In this document: positions 5,489 to 35,517 of the stretch, in pieces
Position numbering within the stretch: position 1 is the stretch's first letter
Layout of the letters: each line of letters begins with the position of its first letter
Source of the DNA: a virus
Lineage: Duplodnaviria; Heunggongvirae; Uroviricota; Caudoviricetes
IMG/VR virus record: IMGVR_UViG_2547132254_000004
Coordinates: 1-44,342 of that record
Direction: 5' to 3' (one strand)
Length of the DNA stretch: 44,342 nt
The notes under the pieces: generated by a model
Seen by the model: the letters and a program-made list of their open reading frames with translations, nothing else
The model's database searches: none
What the model was told of the DNA's origin: nothing
Position numbers and translations under genes: made by a program

Positions 5489-5523
5489 GATTAGAGTCAA
5501 CAACTATTACTTTGACTCTAATC
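5489..5523. repeat. Perfect 12-bp inverted repeat (GATTAGAGTCAA-N11-TTGACTCTAATC) between convergent genes
   Basis: Read directly; lies between the acyltransferase stop (5470) and the tail fibre assembly gene stop (5731); no U-tract. Confidence 0.4.
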
Positions 5524-5730
5524 ACACTGCAGTTTATCCGTATGCTCTATATTCATAAAAATCGACATCAATATATAGAATGGAAATAAACGAAACCGCG
5601 TCACATCCTCAATATAGAAGCGTTCAAAGCCTTGCAAACCATTGCGAGGCTTTATGTGTCACAGTTTTGTCCTACTTTTATTACACAAAAAGAATTGAGT
5701 TACAATTAAACCGCTTCTCCTCAACAGACT

Positions 5731-6171
5731 TTACTCAGCGAAGCACGGTTCATCCGGCCACTCAAAATCCGGTGCAATGCTGGTATCTGTTGCCGTCACA
5801 GCCTCGATATAATCCAGCACAACGTTAAGTCGGGTAGTTTCTTCTTGCGTCAGTTTGCGCCCGGCCTGCAGCTTTAACTGAATCACGCTGATATTGGCCA
5901 TTGCTGCGTCTATCAGCGACTGTTTTTTCTGTTCAGCGTCAGCTACCAGTTCATCATGAGAACGTTCCGGAGGGAGCGGCGCAGTAAATACCCCGTCTGA
6001 ATACCCCCAGCCGATTCCGGGATGCTCACTGATATCAGAAATATCAATGAGCTGCTGATTATCCGGCACTGTGAATTCAGCCTCGCCATCCCAGACAATG
6101 ACATTCACAACCATCCCATTTTCAATAACTGCATATGACGCATTCATTATGCAAACTCCTCGATAATACAA
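5731..6171 (-). CDS. Tail fibre assembly protein (Tfa/Mu U-like)
   Basis: 146 aa directly downstream of the tail fibre gene on the minus strand; sequence typical of enterobacterial prophage Tfa proteins. Confidence 0.75.
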
Positions 6172-7073
6172 ATCCCAGCAGCACCTTTCCCGCCTGTCAT
6201 ACTGGTTCCGCTATAACCGGCATCGTATGCGCCACCGCCACCTGAACCATATGCCTTACCACTAACACCACCGCCAGCGCCTGCGCGTCCACCGCCCCCC
6301 CAGTACGATGTTCCGCCTTCACCGCTGACGCCGATATTTCCGGACTGACCGTCGCCTCCATTTCCACCAATGATGTTGATACCGCCAGTACTTGGCACAC
6401 CGCCGTTACCACCGTTCGTGTTTGTGACTCCTGATTTTCCACCACCTTCACCACCAGGGGCTATTACCGATCCGAACGAGCTATCACCGCCCTTGAGGCC
6501 GTTCGTCGCACTAACGCCGCCGGCCCCACCTGCGCCGATAGTGACAGGATAACTATCCTTCGTCAGGATCAGCGTGGTGATTACTGTCCCACCTGCCCCG
6601 CCGCCAGCACCGAAAAACGTTTCATTATTGGATATAGCCTTACAGCCGCCCCCTCCGCCACCGCCGCCCGTTATTGTGACCCTGATCCGTTTTGTTCCTG
6701 GCGTCGGGGTGTACGTACCTGATGACGTGAAAACCCGGGTATTCACCCAGCGTCCCACGTATCCGCTTGTATCCCCCAAACCAAGGTTTTCGAGAGCCGT
6801 TTTCACCGTGCCGTCCGATTTGATATCGCCAAACGGATTCTTGCGGCTTAACAGCAGCGCGCGAAGTGCGGTAAGCAACTGATCGTGCCGCCCCTTCTCC
6901 AGACTGGCACCGGATGCCTCCACAACACTGCAAAGTTCCTCCTGCAACATGTCAAAGTAGTCATCATCCAGATCGGTGGCAGGCGTGCCTGTCTGGGGGT
7001 TACCACGGGTAAAACCGTTCTTACCCGCGCCGAACTTATCCTTTTGCGCGGTTTTCGTGTCTATACGATGCAT
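6147..7073 (-). CDS. Tail fibre protein with glycine-rich repeats
   Basis: 308 aa with ATG start; long GGxGG tracts including a G8 run; last gene of the Mu-like baseplate/fibre block. Confidence 0.75.
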
Positions 7074-32088: not shown

Positions 32089-32549
32089 TCATCACTCGAT
32101 ACAGCGCGCTTGCTGCTTTTCCGTAAACACTGCTCACGACGCGCCAGAAAATTGTTTCGTTCTGGCTGGGAGTGGCTTTCACGGAATGCCGCCATCCACA
32201 CCGTTGCAGCACGACGGTATAAGCCCCTGGACTCCAGTTCTTCAGCCTGGCGGGTCAGGCACAAAATCTCCCGCGGGTCGTTAGTGCCGACATAGAAATT
32301 GCGCACAGGTCTGGTTTCACGAACTGGTTGCGGTTCCGCCTCCTGCGCTCTCTCAGTCAGGCGCGGGAAATGTCTGCGTGTATCCCCTTCACAACGGTGA
32401 GCCACACGCCCACTCTGACGTAACTTGCTTGCTGACTGCAGAACGCGCTGCCGTGAGTAACCTGCAAAAGCATCCGCAATGTCTCCGGAAGTACACCCCG
32501 GATGGGCTTCAATGTATTTCTGAACTTCATTCAAAAGACTCATGATCAC
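32055..32549 (-). CDS. PerC-family-like transcriptional regulator
   Basis: 164 aa; C-terminal LESRGLYRRAATVWMAAF matches the recalled PerC/Pch signature; N-terminal helix-turn-helix-like region. Confidence 0.45.
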   Translation of the reverse strand: MIMSLLNEVQKYIEAHPGCTSGDIADAFAGYSRQRVLQSASKLRQSGRVAHRCEGDTRRHFPRLTERAQEAEPQPVRETRPVRNFYVGTNDPREILCLTRQAEELESRGLYRRAATVWMAAFRESHSQPERNNFLARREQCLRKSSKRAVSSDEWYLSGNYVGA

Positions 32550-33487
32550 CCCCTGAATCCTGCCGGGATCTGGCTGTAGTCCACGTTGTCGTAACTGGCT
32601 TTGAAGTACGGGTCTTCGCGTTTTTCTGTGTACGTGCTGACGGACGGCGATAAGCGCAGGGAAAGCTCATCCCATTTTTCCCGCAGCTTCGACGGGCTGA
32701 GCACGTTACGGCACCAGAACGGATCGCGGCTGACGCGGCTGTACATCTCGCAGATTTGTTTGTGAGTACGACCATCCTGCACACACATCAGGCGAATTTC
32801 GTTTGCCCAGGCTGTCCAGTTCGGTTCTTTGGGACGAACCACCTCGCCGTCACATTCGGCGGCCAGCTCGTACAGGGCGATGATTTTTTTCCAGAGCCAC
32901 TGTGCGCAGGTCAAATCATCCTGCGTTCCCCACTGGCGCTTTTTAGGGCTGAATACAACCGCATCAGGATGGCGAGTTAAAAACTCCTGTTCAGCCGTCT
33001 GCGTGTCCGGTTGCGAAGCGTCCGGACGAGAAGTTTTTTTATCTGACGGATCATGTTTTGATTTTACTGACGGATCCCCGCCAGATTCTGACGGGTGAAA
33101 ACCCGCTTTTTTGCCAGATTTCGACGCATCAAATTTTGACGGGTCAGATTTTGATGCGTCAGATTTTGACGGGTCAGAATCTGACAATTGAGAAAATGCC
33201 GCTGCCTGAAGCTTCGCAACGTTAAGCTGATAAACATTCGACGCATTGCGGTTACCCTGGCGACGCGCCTTACGCGTTAACCAGCCTTCTGCTTCCAGCC
33301 GTGCGATAGCCGTTCTGACGGTACTCATCCCCGCGCCAATCTGACGGGCAATGGTTTCAATTGATGGCCAGCACACACCTTCGTCATTACTGAAATCAGC
33401 CAGGCGGGCCATAATTGCCACGCTGGATAATTTCATGCCTGACGCAGCGCAACCATCCCATACATAGCCGGTTAATTTAGTGCTCAT
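32546..33487 (-). CDS. Replication initiation protein (N-terminal wHTH; contains the iteron array)
   Basis: 313 aa; N-terminal HTH-like SVAIMARLADFSNDEGVCWPSIETIARQIGAGMSTVRTAIARLEAEGWL; internal SKSD peptide repeats coincide with 15-bp DNA repeats. Confidence 0.6.
   Translation of the reverse strand: MSTKLTGYVWDGCAASGMKLSSVAIMARLADFSNDEGVCWPSIETIARQIGAGMSTVRTAIARLEAEGWLTRKARRQGNRNASNVYQLNVAKLQAAAFSQLSDSDPSKSDASKSDPSKFDASKSGKKAGFHPSESGGDPSVKSKHDPSDKKTSRPDASQPDTQTAEQEFLTRHPDAVVFSPKKRQWGTQDDLTCAQWLWKKIIALYELAAECDGEVVRPKEPNWTAWANEIRLMCVQDGRTHKQICEMYSRVSRDPFWCRNVLSPSKLREKWDELSLRLSPSVSTYTEKREDPYFKASYDNVDYSQIPAGFRG
33040..33190. repeat. Iteron-like direct repeats (putative replication origin) inside the initiator gene
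   Basis: About 8 copies of a TCTGACGG(A/G)TC-centred unit; the last five (AGATTTTGACGGGTC / AGATTTTGATGCGTC) are spaced exactly 15 bp apart. Confidence 0.6.
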
Positions 33488-33496
33488 GACCGACCT

Positions 33497-33835
33497 CTAT
33501 TTCCCTGAATTTACGACGAAACTGTTCGAGCGGACTGAAGCATTCATGCTCATAGCCTTCGCGGAGGTAGATAACCCGTTGTGTTTCCGGCTCCCAACGA
33601 ATGACTCTGACGGGTACTCCGTAGTGATCTTTGAACCAGCGGTTAACTTGTCGCAAAGGACTGTCTCCTTTTGCCGGTTAAAATCACCCACAGCCCACTC
33701 TGCAAAGCTGTGGGTTACAATTACCCTGCCACCTGGTACATTTACTGCATAGCAATACTCCACCTTCGCTTTTCCACCCGGTACAGGAAGCGCAATCAGT
33801 TGCGAGCGACGGTAGTGTGTTGTTAAACTGTTCAT
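33497..33835 (-). CDS. Hypothetical protein between the cII-like and replication genes
   Basis: 112-aa track ORF in operon orientation; no recognisable motif. Confidence 0.3.
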
Positions 33836-34383
33836 GCGTTAGTTTCTCCACAGTCACGACACGCCACGGCGCCCGGAGCTGCACACTCGCGGGCGTCATT
33901 ACTTTCTGAAATGCAAAAAATTTTGTAGACCAGTGCTGCATGCTCCTGCAGCTTCGAAATTGAGAGGTACAGCTCGTCGTTAATTGCTGTCTTCTCATGC
34001 GGTTCCACTACACCGTCTTCAATTGCTGAACGAATCTGTTTTGAATAACTGCCGATCTGTTCAATGACCTCCAGCAGGCGTTGGTTGATATCGGCGTTGT
34101 CCACATCCTCGACATCAGGAAGAGACACAAAGACGCCATTTGCAGACTGCGCCACAGCGTCAGCAATGAAGTGAGTTCCACCAGCACGTTGCAAAATCAT
34201 TGCCCATCCCAGCGGGAAAATCTGATCGCCATCGGCACGAAGGCGGTTAAATAATGCGTTCTCTGTTACATCCAGCCAGTCAGCAGCTTCAGCGTACCCC
34301 CCCGGCAACGCTGCGATAGTTTTTCTGACAGCTTTCACGTACCACTCAGGCTGTTTTTCTACTTTCCAGTGATGCTTACCCAC
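33832..34383 (-). CDS. CII-like regulatory protein (CP76-type)
   Basis: 183 aa directly downstream of cro in the rightward operon; family assignment from recollection. Confidence 0.5.
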
Positions 34384-34636
34384 GGTTCACCTCCTGTTCC
34401 TGTGGTTTAAACCCATTCTGGTTTTGGCTAGATTGAAAACGTGCCGGATAAAGAATCTGCATTTCGCTGACTTCACCCTTAAAAAAATTGGCTAAACGTT
34501 CTGCAAGCTCGATAGATGGAATCTGCTCCAGCCTCTCAATACGACTCAACGTCGCTGGATTGACTTGAACACCCGCAGCAACATGCTGCAAAGTGAAACC
34601 ATGCGCCTTACGCACATTTCGTAATGGTGATTGCAT
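34376..34636 (-). CDS. Cro-like HTH (XRE family) repressor
   Basis: 86 aa with HTH HGFTLQHVAAGVQVNPATLSRIE; divergent from cI across an operator-containing spacer. Confidence 0.7.
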   Translation of the reverse strand: MQSPLRNVRKAHGFTLQHVAAGVQVNPATLSRIERLEQIPSIELAERLANFFKGEVSEMQILYPARFQSSQNQNGFKPQEQEVNRG

Positions 34637-34733: not shown

Positions 34734-35426
34734 ATGAACATAGGAAACCGAGTCAGACAACTTCGCCAAGCGAAGAACATGAAAATCGCCGATCTCGCTG
34801 AAGCGATAGGAGTAGATGCGGCGAACATCTCGCGCTTAGAAACGGGTAAGCAAAAACAATTTACCGAACAAACACTGAGTAATATTGCCAAGAGCTTAGG
34901 TGTTGATATTGCTGATCTCTTTACCTCTGCCCACAAAAGTAATACTGTATATAAAAACAGTAATAATGAGGATGTTGCGCAGGTGAAGGATGTGTTCCGT
35001 ATTGAAATGCTGGATATCAGTGCCAGTGCGGGAAATGGCCTTATCCAGGGCGGTGATGTCATTGATGTGATTCATGCCATCGAATACAGAACTGATAATG
35101 CTGTATCAATGTTCGGCGGACGACCAGCCAATCACATCAAAGTTATCAACGTTCGTGGGGACAGTATGTGTCCAACCATTGAGCCAGGAGATCTCATCTT
35201 CGTTGATGTCAGCATCAATCAGTTTGATGGTGATGGTATATATGTCTTTGGTTTTGATGACAAAATATACGTTAAAAGACTTCAAATGATTCCTGACAAA
35301 CTGCTGGTGATTTCTGATAACCAGATTTACCGTGAATGGGGAATTACTAGCGAAAACGAACACCGATTCATGGTCTTTGGAAAGGTCTTAATCAGTCAGT
35401 CGCAAACCCTTAAGAGACATAATTAA
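34734..35426 (+). CDS. CI-type prophage repressor (XRE HTH plus S24/LexA-like peptidase domain)
   Basis: 230 aa; N-terminal HTH RVRQLRQAKNMKIADLAEAIGVDAANISRLETGK; C-terminal S24-like region (GDSMCPTIEPGDLIFVD ... VKRL). Confidence 0.85.
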   Translation: MNIGNRVRQLRQAKNMKIADLAEAIGVDAANISRLETGKQKQFTEQTLSNIAKSLGVDIADLFTSAHKSNTVYKNSNNEDVAQVKDVFRIEMLDISASAGNGLIQGGDVIDVIHAIEYRTDNAVSMFGGRPANHIKVINVRGDSMCPTIEPGDLIFVDVSINQFDGDGIYVFGFDDKIYVKRLQMIPDKLLVISDNQIYREWGITSENEHRFMVFGKVLISQSQTLKRHN

Positions 35427-35480: not shown

Positions 35481-35517
35481 TTGCATATCTCGCAAACATC
35501 ACTTGCATATCTCGCAA
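35481..35517. promoter_or_regulatory. Left-operator-like pair of identical palindromes TTGCATATCTCGCAA
   Basis: Two identical copies (35481-35495, 35503-35517), same TTGC-N7-GCAA architecture as the cro/cI sites, upstream of the early-left genes. Confidence 0.45.

What the first reader, a model, noticed from the sequence alone, without database searches (positions are those of the whole stretch)
33040..33190. Iteron array (putative origin) embedded in the replication initiator gene
Direct repeats centred on TCTGACGG(A/G)TC occur about 8 times; the last five are exactly 15 bp apart, producing SKSD-type pentapeptide repeats in the protein. This mirrors lambda, where the origin iterons lie inside gene O.
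Basis: partly seen in the sequence, partly recalled or inferred. Interest (0 to 1): 0.45.

Follow-up and report, generated by a model that had tools for sequence, protein, structure and literature searches.

The report
Probable replication origin inside initiator gene
A row of short palindromic DNA repeats inside a prophage's replication-initiator gene is conserved as DNA rather than as protein, so it is very probably where the initiator binds to start phage replication, as in phage lambda but with a different protein, a different repeat and unusually tight 15-bp spacing.

Summary
The repeats are real and far beyond chance. The conserved unit is an 11-bp palindrome, TCA(A/G)A(A/T)TCTGA. Five copies lie exactly 15 bp apart and a sixth lies 33 bp further on; these six are the only exact matches in the 44-kb window. 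Two GATC-containing, A-rich 24-bp repeats follow.

The array sits in the 313-aa replication gene (32546-33487, minus strand) of an SfIV/SfII-type lambdoid prophage, between the N-terminal winged-helix domain (Pfam HTH_36) and the C-terminal domain.

Fifteen lineages from nine genera (N-domains 59-100% identical) keep the same layout while the encoded peptide changes, and one copy lies in another reading frame. Synonymous change is suppressed in the array (81-93% identical codons versus 35-49% in the N-domain). Initiators with other N-domains carry other palindromes at the same position. Recombination joints fall just after the array.

The lambda-like "origin inside the initiator gene" reading is therefore supported. 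Binding and origin activity remain untested. No strongly AT-rich unwinding block or DnaA box was found.

It is a new variant of a known kind: not a lambda O homologue, 15-bp phasing, and no P-like partner. The protein ends in the same nine residues as host DnaT. The module occurs in 37% of complete E. coli genomes.

The parts
32546..33487 (-). Replication initiator gene (313 aa), 99.7% identical in DNA to Shigella phage SfIV gp41
   Evidence: ORF. Pfam HTH_36 at aa 23-70, 42.9 bits against a cutoff of 25. phrog_391 'replication initiation O-like', E=1.5e-134. SfIV, SfII and related matches.
33188..33487 (-). Coding region of the N-terminal winged-helix DNA-binding domain (aa 1-100), the presumed iteron reader
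   Evidence: HTH_36, GntR, MarR and DnaD_N hits. MarR-type matches in the PDB. This segment is inherited together with the array in phiNP, which shares nt 2-479 only.
33174..33184 (.). Iteron 1, TCAGATTCTGA (perfect palindrome)
33159..33169 (.). Iteron 2, TCAAAATCTGA
33144..33154 (.). Iteron 3, TCAAAATCTGA
33129..33139 (.). Iteron 4, TCAAAATTTGA (perfect palindrome)
33114..33124 (.). Iteron 5, TCGAAATCTGG
33092..33113 (-). Gap between the tandem block and the distal site. The coding strand reads GCAAAAAAGCGGGTTTTCACCCG, and the A5...TTTT(C/G)ACCCG pattern is conserved across lineages.
   Evidence: Anchored alignment of 15 lineages
33081..33091 (.). Iteron 6 (distal site), TCAGAATCTGG, present in nearly all lineages
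33053..33076 (-). GATC repeat A: GATCCGTCAGTAAAATCAAAACAT (iteron left half-site plus an A-rich tail; Dam site at 33073-33076)
   Evidence: (family D5/D6)
33029..33052 (-). GATC repeat B: GATCCGTCAGATAAAAAAACTTCT (Dam site at 33049-33052). This is the lowest-GC stretch of the gene (about 40%) and a candidate, unproven, unwinding region.
33005..33034 (-). Module joint coding TSRPDASQPD. It is shared almost identically by initiators with unrelated N-domains and is where similarity to mosaic relatives begins or ends.
   Evidence: mEp460_4F5 matches from nt 446 and phiNP matches up to nt 479; alignments
32549..32995 (-). C-terminal domain (aa 165-313), exchangeable between lineages
   Evidence: phrog_2357. 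Other lineages have Phg_2220_C or a phiP27-type C-domain.
32549..32575 (-). C-terminal tail SQIPAGFRG, 8 of 9 identical to the extreme C-terminus of E. coli DnaT (SQIPPGFRG)
   Evidence: BLASTP against DnaT translated from NC_000913.3

Best explanation
The array is the initiator-binding (iteron) part of this prophage's replication origin, embedded in the segment of the initiator gene that codes for the linker between its two domains.

Proposed mechanism:
- The gene is transcribed from the early-right operon (cro, cII-like, DUF4222, rep).
- The protein's N-terminal winged-helix domain binds, probably as dimers, to the six 11-bp palindromes TCA(A/G)A(A/T)TCTGA.
- The 15-bp phasing places neighbouring dimers on nearly opposite faces of the helix, so the DNA becomes densely coated.
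- The adjacent distal block (two GATCCGTCAG plus A-rich repeats, the least GC-rich part of the gene) is the most likely place for strand opening.
- The C-terminal domain then brings in the host helicase. No P-, DnaC- or DnaB-like gene follows rep in this phage.

Shown here: the repeats exist, are unique in the window, are under DNA-level purifying selection, co-vary with the type of N-domain, and are inherited with it as one module.

Inferred: binding by the N-domain, dimeric binding, origin firing, the site of unwinding, and the route of helicase recruitment.
For: (1) All six exact matches to the palindrome in 44 kb lie in 33081-33184, against 1.2 expected. It is the only multi-copy repeat family in the early-right region and the top tandem repeat in the window.

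(2) The same palindrome at 15-bp steps, a distal site and two GATCC repeats occur in 15 lineages from Escherichia/Shigella, Citrobacter, Klebsiella, Yersinia, Proteus, Pantoea, Rahnella and Ewingella.

(3) The encoded peptide varies (SKSD, SESE, SGRSE, PESE, DPSNI). In phiP27 and KH16-043 one site is in another frame and encodes LQNL.

(4) Ser codons inside the sites are fixed: TCA 43 of 46 and TCT 41 of 42, versus 24% and 14% elsewhere in the same genes.

(5) In three lineage pairs, identical codons among same-amino-acid codons are 81-93% in the array and 35-49% in the N-domain (p about 1e-6 to 1e-7), while amino-acid identity in the array is equal or lower.

(6) Covariation with the N-domain. 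A 66%-identical N-domain with a changed recognition helix has TCAAnnnTTGA at the same 15-bp phasing. More distant HTH_36 initiators and an unrelated N-domain have quite different palindromes at the same position.

(7) Mosaic joints fall just after the array. Copy number changes by whole 15-bp units among near-identical prophages. Lambda-type Stx phages likewise gain iterons and 13 residues in O (PMC7466680).

(8) No alternative reading frame stays open across lineages.
Against: - There is no experiment: I found no paper describing this sequence or the origin of this phage group.
- No strongly AT-rich block flanks the array. The minimum is about 40% GC over 40 bp, and the distal block is 52-62% A+T across lineages.
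- No DnaA box lies within 3 kb.
- GATC conservation is not absolute: KH16-043 has GAAC at two of the three positions, and it coincides with a conserved Asp-Pro-Ser peptide.
- 15-bp spacing is atypical for iterons. Relatives use 21-24 bp.
- Repeat units and lineages are not statistically independent, so the p-values overstate significance.
Confidence: 0.75

Rival explanations
1. The initiator does bind the array, but the array acts as a regulatory site rather than the origin. It could block transcription of rep and the downstream late-regulator genes, titrate the initiator, or pair copies to limit replication. The origin would lie elsewhere.
For: The evidence shows DNA-level constraint and covariation with the N-domain, which any cognate binding site would give. 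No clear AT-rich unwinding element or DnaA box is adjacent. Palindromic sites are typical of operators.
Against: No other repeat cluster or candidate origin exists in the early region. The array is inside the gene, not at its promoter. The position, polarity (sites first, then an A-rich block) and modular inheritance match the experimentally defined lambdoid origins (PMC7466680). Five of six distant relatives show 3-4 sites at two-turn spacing, as classical iterons do.
Confidence: 0.12
2. The repeats are only a by-product of a low-complexity, slippage-prone Ser/Asp/Lys linker in the protein and have no function as DNA.
For: The array codes for a pentapeptide repeat. Copy number varies by whole units among near-identical prophages. 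The segment has no predicted secondary structure, though the model is low-confidence.
Against: Codon choice is fixed across nine genera while the peptide changes in charge and character. One site lies in another reading frame. Synonymous sites are more conserved than in the structured N-domain while amino acids are less conserved. The conserved unit is a palindrome, which has no meaning for a peptide.
Confidence: 0.04
3. The constraint is on a nucleic-acid structure: an mRNA hairpin that affects translation or stability, or a cruciform or single-strand hairpin in DNA.
For: The coding-strand RNA of 33030-33200 folds at -54.2 kcal/mol, z = -5.15 against shuffles.
Against: Any array of palindromes gives such a fold. 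The hairpin centres on a palindrome and the spacers bulge out. Copy number and spacers differ among lineages without compensating changes, which would shift the pairing register. The distal site and the out-of-frame site are kept as individual palindromes, not as partners of a particular arm.
Confidence: 0.04
4. The palindromes are bound by another protein, either a host factor or another phage DNA-binding protein such as the neighbouring PerC-like, LexA-like or CII-like proteins, and not by the initiator.
For: Binding was not tested. Several DNA-binding proteins are encoded nearby.
Against: The neighbouring genes differ among lineages that keep the array: methylases, PAPS reductase, or a DnaC-like loader follow rep in place of the PerC-like gene. 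The N-domain is the one constant partner, and the palindrome changes when the N-domain changes.
Confidence: 0.05

Closest known systems
Phage lambda ori within gene O, and the 6-iteron origins of lambda-type Stx phages (PMC7466680)
   Same: Initiator-binding repeats with internal dyad symmetry lie in the middle of the initiator's own gene. They fall between the N-terminal DNA-binding domain and the C-terminal recruitment domain and are followed, in the direction of transcription, by an A/T-richer segment. N-domain and repeats form one exchangeable module. Gaining or losing repeats adds or removes residues in the protein.
   Different: The protein is not a lambda O homologue: it hits Pfam HTH_36, with no Phage_rep_O hit. 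The unit is an 11-bp palindrome on a 15-bp period, whereas lambda iterons are about 19 bp at roughly two-turn spacing (from memory). There is no clear AT-rich block. No P gene follows.
Other HTH_36 'O-like' phage initiators (Min27, Klebsiella ST13-OXA48phi12.5, Pectobacterium ZF40, Vibrio D75 and Va_PF430-3)
   Same: They have the same N-domain fold family and the same position for an intragenic array of palindromes just after the N-domain.
   Different: Their palindromes are different sequences (GGCAGGAGCTGCC, TGCCATCnnATGGCA, GTGACnnnnnGTCAC and others). There are 3-4 copies spaced 21-24 bp, not 4-8 copies at 15 bp. I found no experimental origin data for these either.
Iteron origins of plasmids (RepA, pi, TrfA type)
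   Same: Multiple direct repeats are bound by a winged-helix initiator, and copy number of the repeats varies.
   Different: From general knowledge: plasmid iterons lie outside the rep gene, are about 17-22 bp at about 22-bp phasing, usually have DnaA boxes and a marked AT-rich region, and are bound by monomers. Here the sites are palindromic, lie inside the gene and have no DnaA box nearby.
E. coli DnaT (primosomal protein i)
   Same: The last nine residues are almost identical (SQIPAGFRG versus SQIPPGFRG). Some annotation pipelines therefore call these proteins 'primosomal protein I'.
   Different: No significant similarity beyond the tail: hhalign probability is 30% for one 16-residue stretch and there is no PF17948 hit. 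DnaT has no sequence-specific DNA-binding domain.

Membership tests
Lambdoid origin-inside-initiator-gene (lambda ori type) | Three or more repeats with internal dyad symmetry clustered inside the initiator gene | tested here: met
   Six 11-bp palindromes in 33081-33184, which are the only exact matches in the window; TRF result.
Lambdoid origin-inside-initiator-gene (lambda ori type) | The repeats lie between the N-terminal DNA-binding domain and the C-terminal domain, and are inherited with the N-domain | tested here: met
   HTH_36 at aa 23-70, array at aa 102-136, C-domain from about aa 165. phiNP shares nt 2-479 and mEp460_4F5 shares nt 446-942.
Lambdoid origin-inside-initiator-gene (lambda ori type) | Repeat sequence specific to the initiator's N-domain type | tested here: met
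   Same palindrome for N-domains 59-100% identical. Variant palindrome at 66% identity with a changed recognition helix. Different palindromes for distant or unrelated N-domains.
Lambdoid origin-inside-initiator-gene (lambda ori type) | Marked AT-rich region next to the repeats | tested here: inconclusive
   Only a shallow dip to about 40% GC at 33020-33059. The distal block is 52-62% A+T across lineages. It does contain conserved A-tracts and GATC sites.
Lambdoid origin-inside-initiator-gene (lambda ori type) | The initiator binds the repeats, and the region supports replication | not testable with these tools
   Needs EMSA or footprinting and an origin-cloning test. No publication found.
Lambda O protein family (Pfam Phage_rep_O) | Sequence homology of the initiator to lambda O | tested here: not met
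   The Pfam scan returns HTH_36, GntR, MarR and DnaD_N but no Phage_rep_O. PHROGs calls it 'O-like' by function only.
Lambda O/P replication module | A helicase-recruiting partner gene (P, DnaC-like or DnaB-like) immediately downstream | tested here: not met
   The downstream genes are PerC-like, LexA-DBD-like and RusA. The relative phiP27 does have DnaC-like and DnaB-like genes.
Pfam HTH_36 / phrog_391 phage replication initiators | Profile match above the curated threshold | tested here: met
   HTH_36 at 42.9 bits against a cutoff of 25. phrog_391 E=1.5e-134 over the full length.
Plasmid-type iteron origin | Iterons outside rep, about 22-bp phasing, DnaA box and AT-rich region | tested here: not met
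   The array is intragenic with 15-bp phasing. No DnaA box within 3 kb. Plasmid hits are prophages inside large replicons or excised elements, not plasmids that depend on this module.
DnaT (primosomal protein i) | DnaT DNA-binding domain (PF17948) | tested here: not met
   No PF17948 hit. hhalign probability 30%. Only the 9-residue C-terminal tail matches.

The most novel reading that the evidence does not exclude
This very common prophage replicon may start replication in a way that differs from lambda. A dense, 15-bp-phased coat of initiator dimers would form on alternating faces of the DNA. A C-terminal tail copied from host DnaT (SQIPxGFRG) would then plug the initiator directly into the host DnaT-dependent helicase-loading machinery (PriA/PriB or DnaB-DnaC), so that no phage-encoded loader is needed. 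In the lineages examined, the tail is present where no loader or helicase gene follows rep and absent where DnaC-like and DnaB-like genes do follow. YeP1 is an exception: it lacks both.
Probability: 0.2. Interest if true: 0.65.

Novelty: new variant of a known kind. Interest (0 to 1): 0.4.

Why it matters
The N-domain plus array module is present in 2,006 of 5,426 complete E. coli genomes. It also occurs in serotype-converting Shigella phages, some Stx2 phages (phiP27 type), and Klebsiella, Yersinia and Citrobacter phages. RefSeq nevertheless labels the gene only "helix-turn-helix domain-containing protein", and no origin is annotated.

A defined, testable origin (six palindromes plus the distal block) would:
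- let people map and manipulate replication of these prophages;
- predict replicon incompatibility and specificity classes from the palindrome and the recognition helix;
- explain why the linker of the protein is repetitive and variable in length.

The 15-bp phasing and the DnaT-like tail are concrete handles on how an initiator without a P-like partner recruits the host helicase. As a principle it is not surprising, because it follows the textbook lambdoid design.

Tried and rejected
- The IMG/VR scan with the N-domain returned only 100%-identical loci. These were useless for divergence, though they did show copy-number variation.
- Literature searches for SfIV, SfV or phiP27 origins and for the palindrome sequence itself found nothing relevant. 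The hits to the sequence were unrelated primers. The 'P27' of PMC7466680 has a lambda-type O, so it is not this family.
- PDB sequence searches found only weak MarR-type matches for the N-domain and nothing for the tail.
The single-sequence model was poor (pLDDT 43) and was not used for fold search.
- The plasmid search, run in the hope of finding a small plasmid that depends on this replicon, found prophages in large replicons, an excised e14-type circle with a truncated rep, and a 16-kb prophage fragment.
- Homology of the C-domain to the DnaT domain is inconclusive.
- The function of the DnaT tail was not found in PMC13377028, PMC4129139, PMC5778457 or PMC13220808.
- Rejected: an overlapping ORF as the cause of synonymous constraint; a DnaA-box-dependent origin; a terminator-like hairpin at 33092-33105 on the + strand, since the scan is at chance level (5 found, 3.3 expected).

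Full report
**Context.** The window is an SfIV/SfII-type lambdoid (pro)phage. The gene that holds the finding (32546-33487, minus strand, 313 aa) is 99.7% identical in DNA to Shigella phage SfIV gp41 and 98-99% identical to SfII and several E. coli phages. In those records it is variously annotated 'replication protein', 'primosomal protein' or 'DNA replication protein O'.

It lies in the early-right operon. A cI-like repressor gene (34734-35426, + strand) is transcribed divergently from a minus-strand run of cro-like (34376-34636), CII-like (33832-34383), DUF4222 (33477-33656) and then rep. Rep has a Pfam HTH_36 winged-helix domain at aa 23-70, at 42.9 bits against a cutoff of 25. There is no Phage_rep_O hit. 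It matches phrog_391 'replication initiation O-like' over its full length. The genes downstream are PerC-like, LexA-DNA-binding-domain-like and RusA. No P-, DnaC- or DnaB-like gene is present.

**Observation.** The repeats are real.
- Tandem Repeats Finder reports 33115-33178 with period 15 (4.3 copies) and period 30 (2.1 copies, score 100), the best-scoring tandem repeat in the 44-kb window.
- The repeat finder gives six in-register copies with spacings of 33, 15, 15, 15 and 15 bp.

**Re-centring the unit.** I collected relatives whose N-terminal domain is 59-100% identical: phiNP, two Klebsiella phages, Eeyore, YeP1, Stx2_KH16-043, phiP27 and KpnBHU6. In all of them the invariant part is an 11-bp palindrome, TCA(A/G)A(A/T)TCTGA, repeated every 15 bp and separated by a variable 4-bp spacer.

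In the window the pattern TCRRAWTYTGR matches exactly at six sites: 33174-84, 33159-69, 33144-54, 33129-39, 33114-24 and 33081-91. It matches nowhere else in 44,342 bp (1.2 strand-matches expected, 0 of 100 shuffles reach the observed count).

GATCCGTCAG followed by an A-rich tail occurs twice, 24 bp apart (33053-33076 and 33029-33052), and each copy carries a GATC.

**Is the constraint on DNA or on protein?** Four tests point to DNA.
1. The peptide encoded by the sites differs between lineages (SKSD, SESE, SGRSE, PESE), including charge reversals, while the palindrome is kept.
2. In phiP27 and KH16-043 one copy of the palindrome lies in a different reading frame and encodes LQNL.
3. Codon use is fixed. 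The first Ser of a site is TCA in 43 of 46 cases, against 57 of 236 Ser codons elsewhere in the same genes (p=2e-19). The second is TCT in 41 of 42 cases, against 32 of 236 (p=9e-28). Third-codon positions inside the core are as informative as first and second positions.
4. In three lineage pairs that align without indels, identical codons among same-amino-acid codons are 93%, 81% and 90% in the array block, but 49%, 35% and 46% in the N-domain. Amino-acid identity in the array is equal or lower.

High synonymous conservation combined with relaxed amino-acid conservation is the opposite of what a recent recombination patch or a protein-level constraint would give. The units and lineages are not independent, so the p-values are optimistic. 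The pattern does recur in nine genera, though. Five further lineages from Proteus, Pantoea, Rahnella (two) and Ewingella show the same tandem sites, distal site and GATCC pair. No alternative reading frame is open in all 14 lineages tested (best 6 of 14), which removes an overlapping gene as the cause.

**Link to the initiator's N-domain.**
- The array travels with the N-domain. phiNP shares only nt 2-479 of the gene (N-domain plus array), and its C-domain is of a different type (Phg_2220_C). mEp460_4F5 shares only nt 446-942. The joint is a conserved segment coding TSRPDASQPD (33005-33034).
- mEp460_4F5 has an unrelated N-domain. At the same position it has four different repeats (CATCGGGTCAAAATGACC-like) about 23 bp apart.
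- A lineage with a 66%-identical N-domain and an altered recognition helix (STVKSAI instead of STVRTAI) keeps the 15-bp architecture. Its palindrome changes to TCAAnnnTTGA and its peptide to DPSNI/DPSTV.
- More distant HTH_36 initiators each carry 3-4 copies of their own palindrome just after the N-domain, all 21-24 bp apart: Min27 GGCAGGAGCTGCC, Klebsiella ST13-OXA48phi12.5 TGCCATCnnATGGCA, ZF40 TGTGCC...GCACA, Vibrio D75 GTGACnnnnnGTCAC and Va_PF430-3 GGTCAAATTCCGACC. Salmonella SI8 showed none.
- Among 80 prophages with an identical N-domain, 74 have the window's layout and 6 differ by whole 15-bp units. In lambda-type Stx phages, two extra iterons likewise add 13 residues to O (PMC7466680).

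**What it most likely is.** All of this matches the lambdoid design. In that design the origin lies in the middle of the initiator gene and consists of initiator-binding repeats followed by an A/T-richer region, and the N-domain and its repeats form one specificity module (PMC7466680).

I therefore take the array to be the iteron part of the phage origin. The sites are probably bound by dimers of the winged-helix N-domain, because they are palindromes. The conserved distal block (A5, N5, TTTT(C/G)ACCCG, distal site, then two GATCCGTCAG plus A-rich repeats) is the best candidate for the opening region. Binding, firing and the site of unwinding are inferences.

**Weak points.**
- The lambda-type AT-rich block is not evident. 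The lowest value is about 40% GC at 33020-33059, and the distal block is 52-62% A+T in the 9 lineages measured.
- No DnaA box lies within 3 kb.
- The GATC pair is not fully conserved (KH16-043) and coincides with a conserved Asp-Pro-Ser peptide.
- The 15-bp period is about 1.4 helical turns, unlike the two-turn spacing seen in relatives and in classical iterons (general knowledge). Neighbouring sites therefore face nearly opposite sides of the helix. This is the main architectural novelty, and its consequence is unknown.
- The strong predicted RNA fold (z = -5.15) is what any array of palindromes gives, so it does not discriminate between explanations.

**Helicase recruitment.** This phage has no loader gene after rep. 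The last nine residues of Rep (SQIPAGFRG) are 8 of 9 identical to the extreme C-terminus of E. coli DnaT (SQIPPGFRG), which I checked against DnaT translated from NC_000913.3.
- A similar tail, (I/V/L)Px(x)GFR(G/S), ends the proteins of phiNP, both Klebsiella phages, Eeyore, KpnBHU6 and the CP148542 lineage. None of the lineages I could check has an adjacent loader.
- The tail is absent from phiP27 and KH16-043. In phiP27, DnaC-like and DnaB-like genes follow rep.
- YeP1 lacks both the tail and a loader.
- Beyond the tail, similarity to DnaT is not significant.
- The papers I could read do not assign a function to the DnaT tail. They say DnaT is thought to recruit DnaB/DnaC by an unknown mechanism (PMC13377028, PMC4129139).

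DnaT mimicry is therefore a lead, not a result.

**Comparison and novelty.** It works like lambda ori, but the protein is not a member of the lambda O family, and there is no O/P pair. It belongs to the HTH_36 / phrog_391 'O-like' initiators. I found no description of its origin or of this palindrome in the searchable literature.

The module is very common: 2,006 of 5,426 complete E. coli genomes, usually labelled only 'helix-turn-helix domain-containing protein'. I rate it a new variant of a known kind. The principle is textbook. The particulars that are new are the 11-bp palindrome, the 15-bp phasing, the GATC-bearing distal block, the absence of a loader and the DnaT-like tail.

**Verdict.** Origin function still needs the experiments listed. 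Confidence that the array is the initiator-binding part of the origin is 0.75. Interest is 0.4.

Noticed in passing
window 32549-32575 (minus strand): Rep ends in SQIPAGFRG, 8 of 9 identical to the extreme C-terminus of E. coli DnaT (SQIPPGFRG). Similar tails end the initiators of relatives that lack an adjacent helicase-loader gene. The tail is absent from phiP27-type initiators, and phiP27's rep is followed by DnaC-like and DnaB-like genes. YeP1 is an exception: it has neither.
   Followed up: partly
L098 (OR902851.1) 5500-6989, minus strand: A 15-kb circular e14-type element (icd fragment, mcrA, invertase) carries this same initiator N-domain, identical up to residue 77. It is then fused to an unrelated ORF, and the iteron array is missing, so this is a decapitated copy of the replicon.
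   Followed up: partly
L099 (NZ_CP148542.1) 1675-2700: This lineage has a 66%-identical N-domain and five TCAAnnnTTGA sites at 15-bp steps. The rep reading frame has a stop inside the GATC block (a pseudogene or an assembly error), yet the DNA of that block is conserved. The protein tail here is SEPDTEIPPGFRG, closer still to DnaT.
   Followed up: partly
window 33477-33656 and 33497-33835 (both minus strand): Two overlapping ORFs in different frames lie just upstream of rep: a 59-aa DUF4222 protein (Pfam E=8.6e-19; called by PGAP in many genomes) and a 112-aa ORF annotated as SfIV gp40 (phrog_1170). One may be a mis-call, or they may truly overlap. DUF4222 accompanies rep in almost every lineage.
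   Followed up: partly
window 35481-35495 and 35503-35517: Two perfect copies of TTGCATATCTCGCAA lie 22 bp apart, just downstream of the cI-like repressor gene. They could be operator-like sites.
   Followed up: no
L002, L003, L084, L086, L087 (genes downstream of rep): In many relatives a DNA adenine methylase gene lies directly, or one gene, after rep, while the presumed origin carries a conserved pair of GATC sites. The window's phage has no such methylase in that position.
   Followed up: no
window 33058-33225 (+) and 33064-33246 (-): Alternative-frame ORFs of 55 and 60 aa run through the array only because the repeat unit lacks stop codons in those frames. They are not conserved across lineages and should not be annotated as genes.
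   Followed up: yes
L093 (Salmonella phage SI8) 1438-2070: This is the only HTH_36 initiator examined with no detectable repeat array inside the gene. A primase/helicase gene follows it, so its origin may lie elsewhere.
   Followed up: no
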